From positions 681,801 to 745,800 of the forward strand of contig DATGWZ010000023.1 of NCBI GenBank assembly GCA_035299145.1: 64,000 nucleotides of DNA, written 5' to 3'. Shown here in pieces: positions 45,401-49,371 of the stretch (positions are counted from its first letter, which is position 1; every line of letters starts with the position of its first letter). The notes below the pieces were generated by a model that was not told where the DNA came from, made no database searches, and saw only the letters and a program-made list of their open reading frames with translations. Position numbers and translations under genes: made by a program. Source of the DNA: Saprospiraceae bacterium (GTDB lineage Bacteria; Bacteroidota; Bacteroidia; Chitinophagales; Saprospiraceae).

Positions 45401-47038
45401 TGTAATCAGTCTCATGAAAATAATCATTTTATCAATATTAAACTGGTAGGTACTTATAGTAATAAATCTGCTATAGGAAGCTCCATTAAAATAACTGCTA
45501 ATGGTCAGAGTCAATATCGTCAAGTGCTGCCTGTACAAGGATTGGGGAGTCAGAATAGCTTACGACAACACTTCGGTTTAGGTAATGCTACTACCGTTGC
45601 TACTATAGAAATAAAGTGGCCATCAGGATATGTTCAGATACTTAACAATATAGCAGTAGATCAGTTTGTCACCATTATAGAGGAAGCCGCAAACCTTGTC
45701 ACGGGATTTGCTTTTAGTGATGATAATGGTAATTGTACGTGGGAAGAAGGTGAACAAAAAATTGAGAATATTGCATTTACGATAGGATCTAATCAATCAA
45801 CATTCACATCCCGTAAAGATGGTATATTTGACCAGAGAATTGGAGCAGGAAATCATACAATAACGCTACAACCCAATGATTACTGGAGTCTAAACTGTTC
45901 ATCATCGGTGAATGTATCAGGAAACAATAACACTTTTAATATAAATCTGCCCCTGACAAAGATTGCAAATGGTGGTGATGCAGGTATCAGCTTTGGCGTC
46001 ACTGCTTGGAGAAGGGGATTTGCAAGCGAATCTATTCTTAGATATTACAATCAAGGTACTGCCAATGCGACAAATGCCAAAATAGAAGTAACTTACCCAT
46101 CGGGAATTGAACTGAAATCAGCAAGTATTCCTTGGACGGAGAAAATTGGTGATACTTATATATGGCAAATTGGCAATATCAATCCGGGAACAGATTTCAC
46201 CATCAATTTGCGCGATTCAGTAACTTTGGCGGTAACGGTCGGACAATTTTTGACACTAAATGCAAATATTATAACCACAAATTCAGATCTAAATCCTGCC
46301 AATAATACATTTACTGAAAATTTAGAAATAGTAGGCGCCATAGACCCGAATGACATCTTGGTTACACCGCGTGGTGAAGGCAAAGAAGGTTTTATAAAAA
46401 AAGACCAAACTTTAAAATATCATATCCGTTTCCAAAATGTGGGTACTTATGCAGCTTCTAGAATTGTATTGGAGAATCAATTATCAAAACACCTAGATTG
46501 GAATACTTTCAAAATAGAATCAGTAAGCCATGAAGGATATCACTATAGTATTGATGACAAAGGTTTATTAACTGTGAGGTTTAACAATATTGAATTACCT
46601 GACAGTACTAGCAATGAAGCGGAAAGTCACGGGTTTTTTATCTATACCATAAAGGCATTTGGAGATGTCAAGGGTGGAGAAAGAATTGAAAACAGTGTTT
46701 TAATTACATTTGATTATGAAGAATCTTTACAATCCAATGTAGTCGTAAATACTATTAAATATAATGGTAAACCTAATACAAAAAGCTTACATATATTCCC
46801 TAATCCTGCCACTGACTTGGTAAACGTTATAGGAGACGCTGGCGATATTCTGAAAGATCTTCCTTTATTACATACCATCAAAATATTAAACTTTGCAGGG
46901 AGCGTTATCAATGTAATTAACAATACTGAGAAGTATAATATTGATATTAATGTAAGCCATTTAGCGCCAGGTATTTATTATATAACTGGTTATGATTATG
47001 ACGGTCTTATTTATCAAGGGAAAATGGTGAAGATGTAA
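42425..47038 (+). CDS. ~1537-aa T9SS-secreted protein: four N-terminal ~110-aa repeats, 7 FG-GAP/VCBS repeats, an UnbV/ASPIC domain (CRTAC1-like), Ig-like/CARDB-like domains and a T9SS C-terminal domain
   Basis: Signal peptide MRLIFIILLAWVAFSTTLIAG. Seven xxDYNNDGxxDLFVxN repeats. KWPSGYVQIL UnbV-like segment. C-terminal LHIFPNPATDLVNVIG...GIYYITGYDYDGLIYQGKMVKM. I prefer the ATG at 42425 over the TTG at 42377. Confidence 0.85.
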   Translation: MRLIFIILLAWVAFSTTLIAGGAPSTYFNIYLPPNNDPVQRNVALIVTAIYDETTFTITDDDADGDNDDTVTGTLSAGQSYVLYIKDNGINDDAQYASGGVLKRDGDYFIINSSKLVFASMSTDSDWQHDFVPSVNKTSLGGKFIIYAPKITSSKRDLNVFAFEDNTTITISKISSVPTTATGYTNIDIDAKTIVKQRTINRGQDIIHHFQDGRDVMETGATYMIESNKPVSVQYGALWANARDGGGYVPSSNGSSSGDLFYFAVPYQSIGEQEIRIVSWDDNNAVTLERYENGSWINMKSWTVNRLKPADWIGKKNGNATYPTVFRISCTPNKKVSVFECNWMETGSPGTSDMASMVSSEAGTDAGKEFLVYLLPPGNQNNVINPFTGQLFGGNFAHCYIYAGDQAANVTIKDTKTNGSIINRTYTIQPNRYVDAFFTLNEWKSIYNGNGNPDSGPDRPYVLIESNQNISVMNSNTNDNWMMYFGSSLESGFSQVGDASQNSAIPGDNITFTSVITNGSSTLTNTELQVVIGSGAVPSSSEVNLGNQNIPGVITSNENQSTITFNNVPNLAANQQVSIVTELVINPTFNNGNPIPNNTVISIESSVTGLVNGQVQQSVITEGIQNNSSNLSQLLFNPCATGVLGDVATDSWNIAWVDYNNDGWEDLFVTDRNPSKPNLLFTNSAGNNFYKATNGPLVNLTEKTVASAWGDYNNDGLVDVFVVNATGTQSRLFKNVNGSYVEVSNTGLDVDPQYFHGAAWFDMDNDGFLDLIVTNYFETKFHKIYRNNKNGTFTSLKDNPIALESNRSTMPALADYNNDGLVDVFIPNGNDKPNSLFKNIGNGNFEKITQSVLSAASQNSVGALWADYNNDGWVDLYVLNASKQQNELFKNLGDGNFEKINNTALTESFADTHTALWLDHDNDGDLDFYMSNDQGSSFYYINNGNDDFTKKLGEMVSSNFGHAMGAASADYNRDGHIDIFVATHTNDKNKLFCNQSHENNHFINIKLVGTYSNKSAIGSSIKITANGQSQYRQVLPVQGLGSQNSLRQHFGLGNATTVATIEIKWPSGYVQILNNIAVDQFVTIIEEAANLVTGFAFSDDNGNCTWEEGEQKIENIAFTIGSNQSTFTSRKDGIFDQRIGAGNHTITLQPNDYWSLNCSSSVNVSGNNNTFNINLPLTKIANGGDAGISFGVTAWRRGFASESILRYYNQGTANATNAKIEVTYPSGIELKSASIPWTEKIGDTYIWQIGNINPGTDFTINLRDSVTLAVTVGQFLTLNANIITTNSDLNPANNTFTENLEIVGAIDPNDILVTPRGEGKEGFIKKDQTLKYHIRFQNVGTYAASRIVLENQLSKHLDWNTFKIESVSHEGYHYSIDDKGLLTVRFNNIELPDSTSNEAESHGFFIYTIKAFGDVKGGERIENSVLITFDYEESLQSNVVVNTIKYNGKPNTKSLHIFPNPATDLVNVIGDAGDILKDLPLLHTIKILNFAGSVINVINNTEKYNIDINVSHLAPGIYYITGYDYDGLIYQGKMVKM

Positions 47039-47102: not shown

Positions 47103-47620
47103 TTTTAATCATATCAATTATGATCTAAATTTTTGTCATAGTAACTGATCCGCTTTATACTGGCATTGAAATAATGAATTGAAAATTCTAAATAAGCATT
47201 GCTTACTTGCCATACAGAAGCTCATTGATTATGGGTCTTTCTATATTTTTAAGTTTCGGTTTGTGTACTACAGATTTTAGTTTTATGAACGGTTTATGAT
47301 GTTTTTCAAAGTTCTGTGTTACTGAACTATATTAATTTCTGAATTGTAATTCAATCTTCAGAAAATTAAAAACAAAGGATCTAATATGCCATACATTCAG
47401 CACTTATAGTTCTGACAATTGGTAAACTCTGATTATGCGTTAGAACTTTGTAATGAGAAGCTAAAATGCAATAAATCAGCTATTTATATCCAAAAAGCGT
47501 AGCATCGCTACGGTTACAACGGAAAAATAGTCCGCCTTGGTGGATTCTGATTTTCAGACCTTGTCAAGCCAAAGGCATGAAGTTTAGCTTCGGAATTGAT
47601 TTTCTAAAGCATATTTCGGG

Positions 47621-47819
47621 CAATGTCGTTAAGTTAAGGTGTTTTTAATGTTTTTACCAATCCTAAATTGGTATCCACAAGCCGGTGTTTGTGGTTCCTT
47701 CATTATTGAGTGAAATCGTTCACTCAATTTGCTTTGCAACCATTCAGTCATCTTAAAATGGACTGTGTGACGCCATAGCGTTAAGGACTTCATAAATCTG
47801 TTTTAACTAAACGACATTG
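47621..47819. mobile_element. 199-bp MITE-like element (alternatively a structured ncRNA) with 17-bp terminal inverted repeats and a 10-bp flanking direct repeat
   Basis: Left TIR CAATGTCGTTAAGTTAA (47621-47637) and right TIR TTAACTAAACGACATTG (47803-47819) are complementary at 16 of 17 positions. An identical ATATTTCGGG lies at 47611-47620 and 47820-47829. There is no ORF inside. Confidence 0.45.
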
Positions 47820-48099
47820 ATATTTCGGGTTAAATCTAATGGTAAATTTTTATTTAGATGGTTGTAGTTTGTAACTGCCTTTTAGCTTTGCATTTTAATT
47901 AAATTGATCATAATCTTTTACTTTCGAAACGATAGTACTATCAAAGTATTTATCTAAATACACACAAAACTGACCTAAATATAGAGAAATTCATAATTGT
48001 ATGGAATCAAAGTAATAGATTTAGATCATAGCTTACCTTCGTGTTCATTTCATGAAAAATCCTTAGACTTATAATTCATAATAAAAAATCATTTCATCA

Positions 48100-49371
48100 C
48101 TACACCTTCCTAACCATCATCTTTTCTACTCTCGTTAGATACTTTCTATTATCAAAAGCAATCATAAATATCACCAATTGGTAAAAAAGTATGCCATAAT
48201 TAGACTCTCCGAAAATACCGAACTCTGTAAATGAATTGATAATCACAGGGATTAACATGCCTAGCAACATGAGTTTTATCTCTTTATTTTCCCTAAAGAT
48301 GCCGCGTAATGTAAATATCATCTGAAATATCACCAGCGTCAGTCCTACAAATCCTAAATTCATCAATACCTGCATAAAAGTATTATGAGTCATCTTGCCA
48401 GGATAAGTGTGTGTACTCTGAAAAAACTCTTTGTAGTCAATACGCATAAACCCAAAACCCAATAAAGGTTCTCTAGGCAATCCTTCACTGATAAGGGCTT
48501 TCCAGAAAGGTAACCTTCCTGTCATACTCATGACTTCTTCGAGTCTTTCTGTGTCTCCACCTTTAAGTACTACTTTCCAAATGGCAACTGGCGCAATGAT
48601 AAGCATACCCGCGATGATAAGTGCTTTGAGTTGTTTTTTGTCAGACTGACTAATATGAAAGTAAATAATTAACAAAGCTCCGATCAACGATGATCTCGAA
48701 CCTGTGGCATACAGGGCATAAAAAATGACGATTAATTTTACAATAGTCCATACTGTGTGATGCTTACGATATAAATCAAAAATCAAGCAAGCTACACCTA
48801 CACCCGCAAGCATACCGAGTTCATTGGGATTCATAATATACCCGCCAAGTCTTGCTTCTTCACCACCGTGGGTCAGCCTGTAAAATGTATCAGGATCGAC
48901 AAACATACCTACGACAAATATCAGAATAAGGATAAAAACCGTATTGCCCAATAAATTGTAGAGTTTGGTCGTATTGTTGGGAAAGTAGATATTTAATAAG
49001 GCTATACTTTTGACAAAAAAGTAACAAAATACCAGACTTTGCATCGTCATAAACCACTGCAACGCACTAAAACCTACATTTGTACTCCACAAAAAAGACA
49101 AAAATCCAAGACCAAGATAAGCAAAATACAATCTTGATGCCAATACATTCTTTGCTACCAAAGTATCTGGTGCACCATTATTTACAATTCGTCGGTAGAT
49201 TAGATAGGATCCTATCAATACACCCATGCGACCTACTACTTTGATGACTCTTGTGATGATAATATTTTCACTCCACGTAAAAAAGCCTGCCACCATTAGA
49301 AATAATAGGACAAATAACCATGTATTGATACTTTTCAGAAATTCTGCCTCATTAAAATTTTTATATCTCAT
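48100..49371 (-). CDS. O-antigen ligase/polymerase family (Wzy-like) membrane protein
   Basis: About 10-12 TM helices, ATGSRSSLIGAL motif in a periplasmic-loop context typical of the Wzy_C family. Confidence 0.7.
   Translation of the reverse strand: MRYKNFNEAEFLKSINTWLFVLLFLMVAGFFTWSENIIITRVIKVVGRMGVLIGSYLIYRRIVNNGAPDTLVAKNVLASRLYFAYLGLGFLSFLWSTNVGFSALQWFMTMQSLVFCYFFVKSIALLNIYFPNNTTKLYNLLGNTVFILILIFVVGMFVDPDTFYRLTHGGEEARLGGYIMNPNELGMLAGVGVACLIFDLYRKHHTVWTIVKLIVIFYALYATGSRSSLIGALLIIYFHISQSDKKQLKALIIAGMLIIAPVAIWKVVLKGGDTERLEEVMSMTGRLPFWKALISEGLPREPLLGFGFMRIDYKEFFQSTHTYPGKMTHNTFMQVLMNLGFVGLTLVIFQMIFTLRGIFRENKEIKLMLLGMLIPVIINSFTEFGIFGESNYGILFYQLVIFMIAFDNRKYLTRVEKMMVRKV

What the first reader, a model, noticed from the sequence alone, without database searches (positions are those of the whole stretch)
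47611..47829. 199-bp element with 17-bp terminal inverted repeats, an exact 10-bp flanking direct repeat and four internal hairpins: MITE or structured RNA
Seen directly: ATATTTCGGG at 47611-47620, then CAATGTCGTTAAGTTAA, then 165 nt, then TTAACTAAACGACATTG, then ATATTTCGGG at 47820-47829. The inverted repeats are complementary at 16 of 17 positions and the flanking 10-mers are identical. This is the signature of a transposition event with a target-site duplication. No transposase gene is present in the window, so the element is non-autonomous.

Unusually for a MITE, the interior is a chain of independent hairpins rather than one long foldback.
- 47655-47673: 7-bp stem.
- 47675-47694: 6-bp stem.
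- 47705-47728: perfect 10-bp stem with an ATCG loop.
- 47745-47765: 7-bp stem with one bulge.

With the terminal repeats acting as a closing helix, this looks like a multi-branched RNA. It could be an RNA-based mobile or regulatory element rather than a simple MITE.
Basis: seen in the sequence. Interest (0 to 1): 0.6.

Follow-up and report, generated by a model that had tools for sequence, protein, structure and literature searches.

The report
IS4-derived MITE carrying nested mini-repeats
The 199-bp stretch is a miniature, gene-less copy of an IS4-family insertion sequence that inserted between two genes after this bacterium split from its closest sequenced relative, and its internal hairpins are smaller repeat modules nested inside it, not one purpose-built RNA.

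Summary
An exact 10-bp duplication (ATATTTCGGG) flanks a 199-bp element with 16/17 terminal inverted repeats (TIRs).

It is a MITE, on four lines of evidence.
- **Empty site.** The orthologous locus of a same-genus genome (G212, flanking genes 93-97% identical) has the 10-mer once and no element.
- **Copies.** The basic ~100-bp form occurs three more times in this genome and roughly 30-65 times in three same-genus genomes, with 10-bp AT-rich duplications.
- **Spread.** The same 18-bp TIR bounds MITEs across Bacteroidota.
- **Source.** Full-length IS4-family elements have matching ends and 10-bp duplications: 1,479 bp in a Prolixibacteraceae MAG, 1,423 bp in same-genus G235. This genome has no homologue of that transposase, so its copies look orphaned.

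The "chain of hairpins" is nesting. The MITE's central REP-like hairpin carries an 84-nt module ("B") and a 21-nt hairpin ("C"). Each occurs elsewhere without the TIRs.

Module B shows strong covariation. In the searches run it matched only genomes of this family, where it also sits in CRISPR repeats and beside tRNA genes. It has no Rfam match, and its way of spreading is unresolved.

The TIRs show mainly single-arm, uncompensated changes, so a TIR-closed multi-branched RNA is not supported.

Verdict: an ordinary MITE, a new member of a known kind, with one interesting passenger.

The parts
47611..47620 (.). Left copy of the 10-bp target-site duplication, ATATTTCGGG.
   Evidence: A single copy (ATATTTACGG) is present at the empty orthologous site in G212.
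47621..47819 (+). Composite MITE, 199 bp: an IS4-type TIR element of about 100 bp expanded by nested modules.
47621..47638 (+). Left terminal inverted repeat, CAATGTCGTTAAGTTAAG. The family consensus is CAATGTCGTTTAGTTAAG.
47650..47668 (+). 5' part of the REP-like core (TTTTTACCAATCCTAAAT). It is shared with short MITE copies and with the TIR-less element R3.
47669..47752 (+). Module B: an 84-nt structured passenger.
- H1 at 47675-47694.
- Linker TTCCTTCATTA.
- H2 at 47705-47728.
- H3 at 47730-47738.
- 3' motif CAGTCATC at 47745-47752.
   Evidence: - Covariance model R1 scores it at 99 bits.
- Covariation is shown.
- G-U outnumbers A-C 77 to 8, which favours the + strand.
47753..47762 (+). REP-like core loop and start of its 3' arm (TTAAAATGGA).
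   Evidence: Comparison with unfilled cores reading CCTTCCCTTAAAATGGAAGG.
47763..47783 (+). Module C: a 21-nt hairpin insert, CTGTGTGACGCCATAGCGTTA, lying between GGA and AGG of the core's 3' arm.
   Evidence: - Searches show the same insert at the same position in C21:178481 and C9:26419.
- It is also present in G212 loci L102 and L103 and in the MAG copy.
- It is absent from L104, L105 and L121 and from all short MITEs.
47784..47801 (+). Remainder of the core 3' arm and the sub-terminal MITE sequence (AGGACTTCATAAATCTGT).
47802..47819 (-). Right terminal inverted repeat. Read on the - strand it is CAATGTCGTTTAGTTAAA.
47820..47829 (.). Right copy of the 10-bp target-site duplication, ATATTTCGGG.

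Best explanation
The element is a non-autonomous DNA transposon (MITE) derived from an IS4-family insertion sequence. It belongs to a family whose basic unit is about 100-102 bp.

**Basic unit.** 18-19-bp terminal inverted repeats (CAATGTCGTTTAGTTAAG[G]) flank a short REP-like hairpin.

**Mechanism.** An IS4-type DDE transposase supplied in trans binds the two ends and inserts the element at a 10-bp staggered cut in AT-rich DNA. Repair of the gaps gives the 10-bp duplication.

**The window copy is composite.** Its central hairpin has been expanded from about 20 nt to about 125 nt by two smaller repeat modules:
- an 84-nt structured module B;
- a 21-nt hairpin C.

The composite was then transposed as one unit.

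**Shown here:**
- the ends and the duplication;
- an empty site in a close relative;
- many copies elsewhere;
- autonomous relatives with the same ends and the same duplication length;
- the modular make-up of the interior.

**Inferred:**
- mobilisation in trans;
- the order of nesting;
- that the transposase has since been lost from this genome.
For: **1. Real insertion.** G212:C650 is the orthologous locus, with flanking genes 93% and 97% identical. It reads GATTTTCTAATGC-ATATTTACGG-TTAAACTCTG, with no element.

**2. A family in this genome.** Three short copies (99-104 bp) lie at C16:66880, C30:645956 and C6:27069. Their 10-bp flanks match at 9/10 (C16) and about 7/10 (C30, C6).

**3. A family in the genus.**
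- The TIR pattern hits 24 of 43 same-genus genomes.
- Hits (forward + reverse) number 60+68 in G235, 45+50 in G252 and 33+32 in G241. That is about 64, 48 and 33 elements.
- The reversed-pattern control gives 0-3.
- Copies are 100-102 bp, with duplications such as ATTTTAATCT 10/10 and ACTTTCAATG 10/10, and several at 9/10.

**4. The composite moved as a unit.**
- A 92%-identical long copy lies at a different site in a Saprospiraceae MAG.
- A TIR+core+B copy lacking C lies in G233 with a perfect 10-bp duplication.

**5. The source IS.**
- The exact 18-mer occurs in at least 120 stretches across many Bacteroidota families.
- Most pairs are 75-500 bp apart with 10-bp duplications.
- L189:3106-4584 is a 1,479-bp IS with these ends and the duplication ATACAGGATA, 10/10.
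- It carries a 391-aa transposase that matches NF033592 (IS4 family) at 152 bits against a cut-off of 115, and PF01609.
- Same-genus G235 holds a 1,423-bp IS with perfect TIRs CAATGTCATTAACTTAAG (15/18 to the MITE), a 9/10 10-bp duplication, and a transposase 32% identical.
- G212 holds a degraded copy with the end CAATGTCGTTAAGTAAAG.

**6. The interior is nested.**
- The core hairpin occurs alone.
- Core+B, core+C and core+B+C occur without TIRs.
- Module B occurs 13 times in this genome in unrelated contexts.
Against: - No homologue of the IS4 transposase, and no PF01609 domain at all, was found in this assembly. Trans-mobilisation in this lineage is therefore inferred, not shown. IS copies can also be missing from draft assemblies.
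- The only full-length same-genus IS found has ends that differ from the MITE's at 3 of 18 positions.
- Some copies have poorly matching flanks (C30, C6, L120).
- How B and C entered the core is not settled. They may have inserted directly, or arrived by recombination or gene conversion with the TIR-less element R3, which shares the core.
- Two copies (C6, C30) carry the same substitution on both TIR arms. This is a weak hint of arm-to-arm correction or pairing.
Confidence: 0.88

Rival explanations
1. The whole 199-nt unit is a structured non-coding RNA gene: a multi-branched fold closed by the TIR helix. It would then be an RNA-based mobile or regulatory element rather than a DNA transposon.
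For: - The fold is much better than shuffles on both strands, with z about -5.
- The interior contains stems with real covariation.
- G-U outnumbers A-C 77 to 8, so one strand is favoured.
Against: - A fixed 10-bp duplication, an empty site, and an IS4 transposon with identical ends explain the ends completely.
- Across 15 copies, most substitutions in a TIR arm are on one arm only and uncompensated.
- Most family members are about 100 bp and lack the interior hairpins.
- In other Bacteroidota the same TIRs enclose unrelated interiors.
- Hairpins 1 and 4 exist only where modules happen to abut.
- There is no Rfam match.
Confidence: 0.03
2. Module B, and the small hairpins C and D, are independently mobile very small elements. 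On this view they inserted directly and site-specifically into the MITE's core hairpin, by an ssDNA (HUH/Y1-type) or RNA-mediated route. The interior would then record several separate insertion events.
For: **All combinations occur.** Copies exist with and without B, with and without C, and with and without the TIRs, always at identical positions. This needs recurrent insertion, recurrent loss, or conversion.

**B lies in unrelated hosts.**
- CRISPR repeats of a type III-B array.
- A 487-bp element that is absent from G233.
- Beside tRNA-Asp, tRNA-Glu and tRNA-Val, often in tandem arrays of 140-180 bp period, in other genera.

**Sub-modules behave separately.** In G134 the H2-H3 units chain head to tail and H1 occurs alone.

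**Another hairpin does the same.** A 30-nt hairpin D sits at another fixed position of the MITE core in G241.
Against: - No clean orthologous filled/empty pair was found for B alone. Every recent polymorphism found involves a larger host element: the MITE, R3, or the 487-bp element.
- No protein gene recurs next to B.
- Y1 transposases occur in 102 of 151 family genomes but are missing from G020, which has 22 copies of B.
- The RAYT-like genes of this genome are flanked by other repeats.
- The shared core gives about 20 nt of homology on each side, enough for conversion between R3 and the MITE.
- Flank complementarity around B is not general (p = 0.10).
Confidence: 0.3
3. Module B is a functional structured RNA or DNA signal kept by selection for the host, for example a processing, termination or regulatory element. 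On this view it is merely carried around by several mobile elements.
For: - Covariation is very strong: H2 is paired in 98.5% of cells, and 18 of 20 pairs show double changes.
- The single-stranded motifs GGTTCCTTC and CAGTCATC are conserved.
- It is family-wide but patchy: 22 of 151 genomes.
- All three copies in the CRISPR array lie on the transcribed strand.
- H2 plus its T-rich tail scores as terminator-like.
Against: - Copy number ranges from 0 to 22 or more between genera.
- Many copies lie at contig ends and in tandem arrays, as selfish repeats do.
- There is no conserved gene neighbourhood.
- It interrupts CRISPR repeats, which is more likely damaging than useful.
Confidence: 0.15

Closest known systems
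IS4-family insertion sequences and their non-autonomous derivatives (MITEs; the IS231-derived 'mobile insertion cassettes' MIC231 of Bacillus cereus). Recalled from my own knowledge: De Palmenaer et al. 2004 and 2008.
   Same: - TIRs identical to those of a full-length IS4-family element.
- A 10-bp duplication, within the 9-13-bp range recalled for IS4/IS231-type elements.
- No transposase of its own.
- The ends enclose passenger DNA unrelated to transposition, as in MICs.
   Different: - The passengers here are not genes. They are lineage-specific small hairpin repeats.
- The family is in Bacteroidota.
- No active partner was found in the host genome.
- The subgroup within IS4 was not determined.
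Modular or mosaic small repeats: BOX elements of Streptococcus pneumoniae (boxA-boxB(n)-boxC) and BIMEs of E. coli. Recalled from my own knowledge.
   Same: Built from separable sub-modules that occur in varying combinations and numbers. They are hairpin-rich, intergenic and non-coding.
   Different: - Here the outer shell is a classical TIR/TSD transposon with an identified IS family.
- The inner modules have their own, wider distribution: CRISPR repeats and tRNA flanks.
Small dispersed repeats (SDR1-8, 21-27 nt) of Nostoc punctiforme and relatives. Elhai et al. 2008, Genome Res 18:1484. The citation was verified in the reference list of PMC3116915. The paper itself is not held, so its content is from my own knowledge.
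   Same: - Very small hairpin units. Module C is 21 nt and module D about 30 nt.
- Found nested inside MITEs and inside other repeats at fixed positions.
- Structure is supported by compensatory changes.
- Confined to one coherent clade.
   Different: - A different phylum with unrelated sequences.
- Module B is larger (84 nt, three hairpins).
- Low copy number in this genome.
- Independent mobility is not demonstrated here.
REP/REPIN elements mobilised by RAYT (Y1/HUH) transposases (Bertels & Rainey 2011, PMC3116915).
   Same: Short imperfect palindromes dispersed in intergenic DNA. Y1-type genes exist in this genome, and two of them are flanked by their own repeats.
   Different: - The repeats flanking those Y1 genes are unrelated to the core, B or C.
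- No GTAG/CGTC-type head was recognised.
- Y1 presence does not track module B.

Membership tests
MITE (non-autonomous TIR transposon) | Terminal inverted repeats. | tested here: met
   16/17 in the window. An 18-bp consensus is shared by 15 aligned copies.
MITE (non-autonomous TIR transposon) | Target-site duplication of constant length, differing in sequence between copies. | tested here: met
   10 bp in the window (10/10). 10 bp in copies from the genus and from other Bacteroidota families, many at 9-10/10.
MITE (non-autonomous TIR transposon) | Small size with no transposase. | tested here: met
   - The element is 199 bp.
- Its only ORF (47629-47793, minus strand, 54 aa) is not conserved. 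Module B copies at C16 and C10 read stop codons in that frame when translated by eye (sequences).
MITE (non-autonomous TIR transposon) | Multiple copies at unrelated loci. | tested here: met
   4 copies in this genome. About 64, 48 and 33 copies in G235, G252 and G241.
MITE (non-autonomous TIR transposon) | An empty site in a related genome. | tested here: met
   G212:C650 has a single 10-mer and no element.
MITE (non-autonomous TIR transposon) | An autonomous element with matching ends and the same duplication length. | tested here: met
   - L189: a 1,479-bp IS with an identical 18-bp end and a 10/10 duplication.
- G235 (L277): a 1,423-bp IS with ends matching at 15/18 and a 9/10 10-bp duplication.
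MITE (non-autonomous TIR transposon) | Mobilisation by that transposase. | not testable with these tools
   Needs a transposition assay.
IS4 family (for the source element) | A DDE transposase matching the IS4 models. | tested here: met
   NF033592 at 152 bits (cut-off 115). PF01609 at 46.7 bits (cut-off 23).
Any described RNA family (Rfam 15) | A match to a curated covariance model. | tested here: not met
   - No relevant hit at E<=1 in the window region.
- No hit at E<=0.1 in 11 loci holding repeat copies from this genome: short MITE copies and fragments of modules B and C.
REP/REPIN-RAYT system (for the core and module B) | A RAYT gene flanked by the same repeats, and co-occurrence of the repeat with the RAYT. 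| tested here: not met
   - The Y1 genes are flanked by other repeats.
- G020 has 22 copies of module B and no Y1 hit.
IS200/IS605-type miniature elements (PATE) (for module B) | Sub-terminal hairpins, no TIR or TSD, a fixed short target 5' of the left end, and a Y1 transposase partner. | tested here: inconclusive
   - Hairpins and a conserved 3' end (CAGTCATC) are present.
- Head-to-tail chains occur in G134.
- The left boundary and target could not be defined.
- No TnpB domain (PF07282) was found in this genome.
- There is no link to Y1 presence.
Small dispersed repeats (SDR) of cyanobacteria (for modules C and D) | 21-27-nt hairpin units nested at fixed sites in MITEs or other repeats, within one clade. 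| tested here: inconclusive
   - Size and nesting fit.
- The sequences and the phylum differ.
- The HIP1 octamer is not enriched (12 copies).
- This is a resemblance in behaviour, not membership.

The most novel reading that the evidence does not exclude
Module B, with the mini-hairpins C and D, may represent a family-restricted class of very small structured mobile elements. On this reading they home into hairpin-forming DNA: REP-like cores, CRISPR repeats and the edges of tRNA genes. They would move without a linked gene, through a single-stranded DNA or RNA intermediate.

This would be a Bacteroidota counterpart of the cyanobacterial SDRs. The tRNA-linked copies carry an inverted copy of the target next to the module.
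Probability: 0.3. Interest if true: 0.65.

Novelty: new member of a known kind. Interest (0 to 1): 0.35.

Why it matters
For this locus the element matters little. It lies between two convergent gene ends, 580 bp and 280 bp past the stop codons, and is best annotated as a repeat.

**Annotation.** One 18-bp IS4-type end defines a MITE superfamily across Bacteroidota. Its interiors are filled with each lineage's own hairpin repeats. That gives a simple rule for annotating these elements. It also warns against reading their folds as RNA genes.

**An open problem.** Module B is a strongly covarying 84-nt unit with no Rfam match. In the searches run it matched only genomes of this family. It turns up inside CRISPR repeats and in tandem arrays beside tRNA genes. 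It could be a tractable case for asking how sub-100-nt repeats spread.

Tried and rejected
**Organism and coding potential**
- Cyanobacterial origin and SDR/HIP1 membership were rejected. There are only 12 HIP1 sites, and the upstream gene carries a T9SS sorting domain.
- The 54-aa ORF inside the element is not conserved in other copies (plus reading the sequences by eye).

**RNA families**
- Rfam gave nothing relevant.

**Y1 and TnpB enzymes**
- The Y1 genes are flanked by unrelated repeats.
- There is no TnpB domain.
- Y1 distribution does not track module B.

**Search for a partner IS**
- There are no extra TIR matches in this genome.
- Two multi-copy IS of G235 were examined and rejected. 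One has ends TCACTACTAACCGAC with a 7-bp duplication. The other has ends CAATACTCCGATAAC with a 5-bp duplication.

**Tests on module B**
- No protein family recurs next to it.
- The "closing helix" or guide-like complementarity between its flanks is clear at tRNA-linked copies but not general (Mann-Whitney p = 0.10).

**Literature and earlier notes**
- Literature searches for Saprospiraceae MITEs and for insertions in CRISPR repeats found nothing relevant.
- The SDR paper is not held.
- The scan's earlier notes added only the taxon and the ORF-free status of the spacer.

**Expression**

Full report
**The observation**

- ATATTTCGGG lies at 47611-47620 and at 47820-47829.
- The arms CAATGTCGTTAAGTTAA and TTAACTAAACGACATTG are complementary at 16 of 17 positions.
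- The element between them is 199 bp.
- It folds far better than shuffles on either strand, with z about -5.

It lies in a 1.06-kb ORF-free spacer between two convergent genes. One is a T9SS-sorted FG-GAP protein ending at 47038. The other is a Wzy-like gene ending at 48100 on the minus strand.

The genome is 6.05 Mb, 35% G+C, in 30 contigs. I place it in Saprospiraceae from three observations:
- a T9SS sorting domain is present;
- HIP1 is not enriched;
- a Saprospiraceae MAG shares about 88%-identical flanking DNA.

**It is a real insertion**

The contig G212:C650, from a same-genus genome, is the orthologous locus. The upstream gene is 93% identical and the downstream gene 97%.

Where the window has 10-mer, element, 10-mer, G212 reads GATTTTCTAATGC ATATTTACGG TTAAACTCTG. 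That is one copy of the 10-mer, with two substitutions, and no element.

**It belongs to a family**

In this genome the two ends recur together as 99-104-bp elements at C16:66880, C30:645956 and C6:27069. The C16 copy is flanked by CCCACTTTAT and CCCACATTAT.

In the genus:
- The 18-mer AATGTCGTTTAGTTAAGG, allowing up to 2 mismatches, hits 24 of 43 genomes.
- Hits number 60+68 in G235, 45+50 in G252 and 33+32 in G241.
- The reversed-pattern control gives 0-3.
- Fetched copies are 100-102 bp. Their duplications are AT-rich and 10 bp long: ATTTTAATCT 10/10, ACTTTCAATG 10/10, and others at 9/10.

A 92%-identical long copy sits at another site in the MAG. G233 has a 180-bp copy with module B but not C. 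So the composite has itself transposed.

**The source element**

The exact 18-mer CAATGTCGTTTAGTTAAG occurs in at least 120 stretches. They come from Cytophagales, Chitinophagales, Bacteroidales, Saprospiraceae and other Bacteroidota.

Most end pairs are 75-500 bp apart. They have perfect or near-perfect 10-bp duplications and completely different, lineage-specific, hairpin-rich interiors.

One pair bounds a 1,479-bp element in a Prolixibacteraceae MAG (L189:3106-4584).
- Its duplication is ATACAGGATA, 10/10.
- It carries a 391-aa ORF.
- The ORF matches the IS4-family transposase model NF033592 at 152 bits (cut-off 115), and PF01609.

Within the genus:
- G235 has a 1,423-bp IS with perfect ends CAATGTCATTAACTTAAG, which match the MITE at 15 of 18 positions. 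It has a 9/10 10-bp duplication and a transposase 32% identical.
- G212 and G241 hold degraded copies.

This genome has no homologue of the transposase and no PF01609 domain. Its four copies therefore look orphaned, with the usual caveat about IS missing from draft assemblies.

**Why the interior looks like a chain of hairpins**

Short copies have a single central hairpin, CCTTCC-CTTAAAAT-GGAAGG. It sits in a roughly 45-nt "core" (TTTACCCATCCTAAATCCTTCCCTTAAAATGGAAGGACTT). The core also occurs outside any TIR.

There the core forms the 5' part of another small mobile element, R3.
- R3 insertions in G212 face empty sites in this genome, at C21:139718-139720 and C20:52333-52337.
- The duplications are TTA and ATAA.

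In the window copy the core is interrupted twice.
- An 84-nt module B lies at 47669-47752.
- A 21-nt hairpin C lies at 47763-47783, between GGA and AGG.

Every combination exists somewhere:
- core alone;
- core+B (G212 loci L104 and L105);
- core+C (C21:178481, C9:26419);
- core+B+C (L102, L103);
- the same with TIRs (short copies; L121; the window and the MAG).

G241 copies carry yet another hairpin, D, of 30 nt at ACCCATCC|TAAATCC. A G235 copy holds a further TIR element.

The other two form across module junctions.

**Module B**

Eleven seed copies gave a covariance model, R1.

Distribution of R1 matches:
- 13 copies in this genome;
- 22 of 151 genomes of the family, up to 22 per genome;
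- none of 112 genomes from 25 other families of the order.

Structure, measured on 88 matches:
- 92% of cells are paired. H2 alone is 98.5% paired.
- 18 of 20 pairs show changes on both sides.
- Controls with the partners slid out of register reach at most 48% paired.
- The alignment is fitted to the model, which inflates these figures somewhat. The seed alignment gives the same picture.

Further features:
- G-U pairs outnumber A-C 77 to 8, so the window's + strand is the one that folds.
- A third hairpin of variable length and sequence is present in 69 of 87 copies.
- The motifs GGTTCCTTC and CAGTCATC are conserved.
- There is no Rfam match.

Contexts in which B occurs:
- Inside the 36-nt repeats of a roughly 100-repeat array next to type III-B cas genes (Cmr2/Cas10, RAMP, Cas6b). 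All three copies are on the transcribed strand.
- Within a 487-bp element that G233 lacks at the orthologous site.
- In other genera, next to tRNA-Asp, tRNA-Glu and tRNA-Val. These copies are often in tandem arrays of 140-180 bp. Each unit carries an inverted copy of the tRNA segment that spans the junction, followed by a direct copy of the tRNA end.
- In G134 the H2-H3 units chain head to tail and H1 occurs alone.

**What is not resolved**

I could not define B's left boundary or its target. I also could not find an orthologous site that differs by B alone. Every recent polymorphism found involves a larger host element.
- No protein gene recurs beside B.
- Y1 transposases are too widespread to be informative (102 of 151 genomes). 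They are absent from G020, which has 22 copies of B.
- The inverted-flank pattern is not general.

B may therefore be a self-spreading mini-element, or a passenger spread by its hosts and by conversion between shared cores, or a selected RNA or DNA signal. I put these at roughly 0.3, 0.5 and 0.15.

**Against a TIR-closed RNA**

Among 15 copies, most substitutions in a TIR arm are on one arm only and uncompensated. Two copies (C6, C30) carry the same change on both arms. Elsewhere in the phylum the same ends enclose unrelated interiors. The ends are transposase sites, not a helix under selection.

**Verdict**

The reading as one multi-branched RNA is not supported.

This is a new member of a known kind: an IS4-derived MITE with nested small repeats. 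It is ordinary as a transposon. Its interest lies in the covarying module B and in the phylum-wide habit of these MITEs of carrying local hairpin repeats.

Noticed in passing
G000:C16:82000-88700 (loci L031, L032, L040); cas genes at C16:74488-81807: A CRISPR array of about 100 repeats lies next to type III-B cas genes (Cmr2/Cas10, RAMP, Cas6b). The 36-nt repeat is GTGAAAGTGATCCTTCGGGCGATAGCCCACTGAAAC.

Several repeats are interrupted by structured inserts.
- Module B lies at 83143, 88038 (truncated) and 88515. The copies at 83143 and 88515 are bounded by 11-13-nt partial repeat duplications.
- At least two other insert types of 80-150 nt are present. One contains ...GAACCGCTGG.ACACCCAGCGGC... 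at about 83876, 84900 and 85300. Another lies at 87217 and 87748.
   Followed up: partly
L020 (G172:C24:607547-607992), L021/L047 (G115:C5), L046 (G069:C47:103112-103528), L056 (G083:C69), L048, L060: In other genera of the family, module B sits beside tRNA-Asp, tRNA-Glu and tRNA-Val genes, often as 2-4 tandem units of 140-180 bp.

Each unit holds, in order:
- an inverted copy of the tRNA segment spanning the junction;
- module B;
- a direct copy of the 12-23-nt tRNA end;
- the local terminator or promoter.

The layout resembles repeated site-specific integration, or a guide-plus-scaffold arrangement.
   Followed up: partly
window 47423-47620: Another dispersed repeat (R2, about 190 nt) ends exactly at the MITE's left edge.
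- It has copies at C15:179302, C23:633548, C13:158004, C4:194817, C18:183310 and C1:156344, and in many same-genus genomes.
- It is present at the orthologous G212 locus, so it predates the MITE insertion.
   Followed up: partly
window 47197-47293 and 47857-47912: Two further short stretches of the spacer match multi-copy sequences in same-genus genomes. The whole 1.06-kb intergenic region is a mosaic of small repeats.
   Followed up: no
L102/L103 (G212) versus G000:C21:139718-139720 and C20:52333-52337: Element R3 is itself mobile.
- It is about 130 nt, or about 213 nt with B and C.
- It starts ...AAATTTACCCATCC and ends in a terminator-like AAGCC...GGCTTTTTTT.
- It is present in G212 and absent at the orthologous sites here, with 3-5-nt AT-rich duplications (TTA, ATAA).
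- No TIRs were seen.
   Followed up: partly
G000:C21:251971-252457 (L034:1224-1710): A 487-bp non-coding element containing module B is absent from the orthologous site in G233:C41. It is flanked by CTTTTAAAA and CTTATTAAAAA. Related copies lie at C10:643676 and C16:66054.
   Followed up: partly
L160-L232 (Bacteroidota MAGs and isolates): MITEs with the identical 18-bp IS4-type end and 10-bp duplications occur across many Bacteroidota families. Their interiors are unrelated between lineages and are built from local hairpin repeats.
   Followed up: partly
G000:C30:521173-522409 and C21:92029-93255: Two RAYT-like Y1 genes (192 and 182 aa) are present. The C30 gene is flanked on both sides by about 170-nt repeat units that contain the hairpin GCTTAGCGAGGACGCTAAGC. 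That hairpin is dispersed about 30-40 times in the genome, so this is a likely REP-RAYT system unrelated to the finding.
   Followed up: partly
G000:C10:520786, C10:673693, C15:58730, C3:92054: A repeat of 270 nt or more carries an H1-less variant of module B. A 21-nt hairpin (CCTGTCACNACTTTAGCGTGA) is present in it or absent from it at one fixed position.
   Followed up: no
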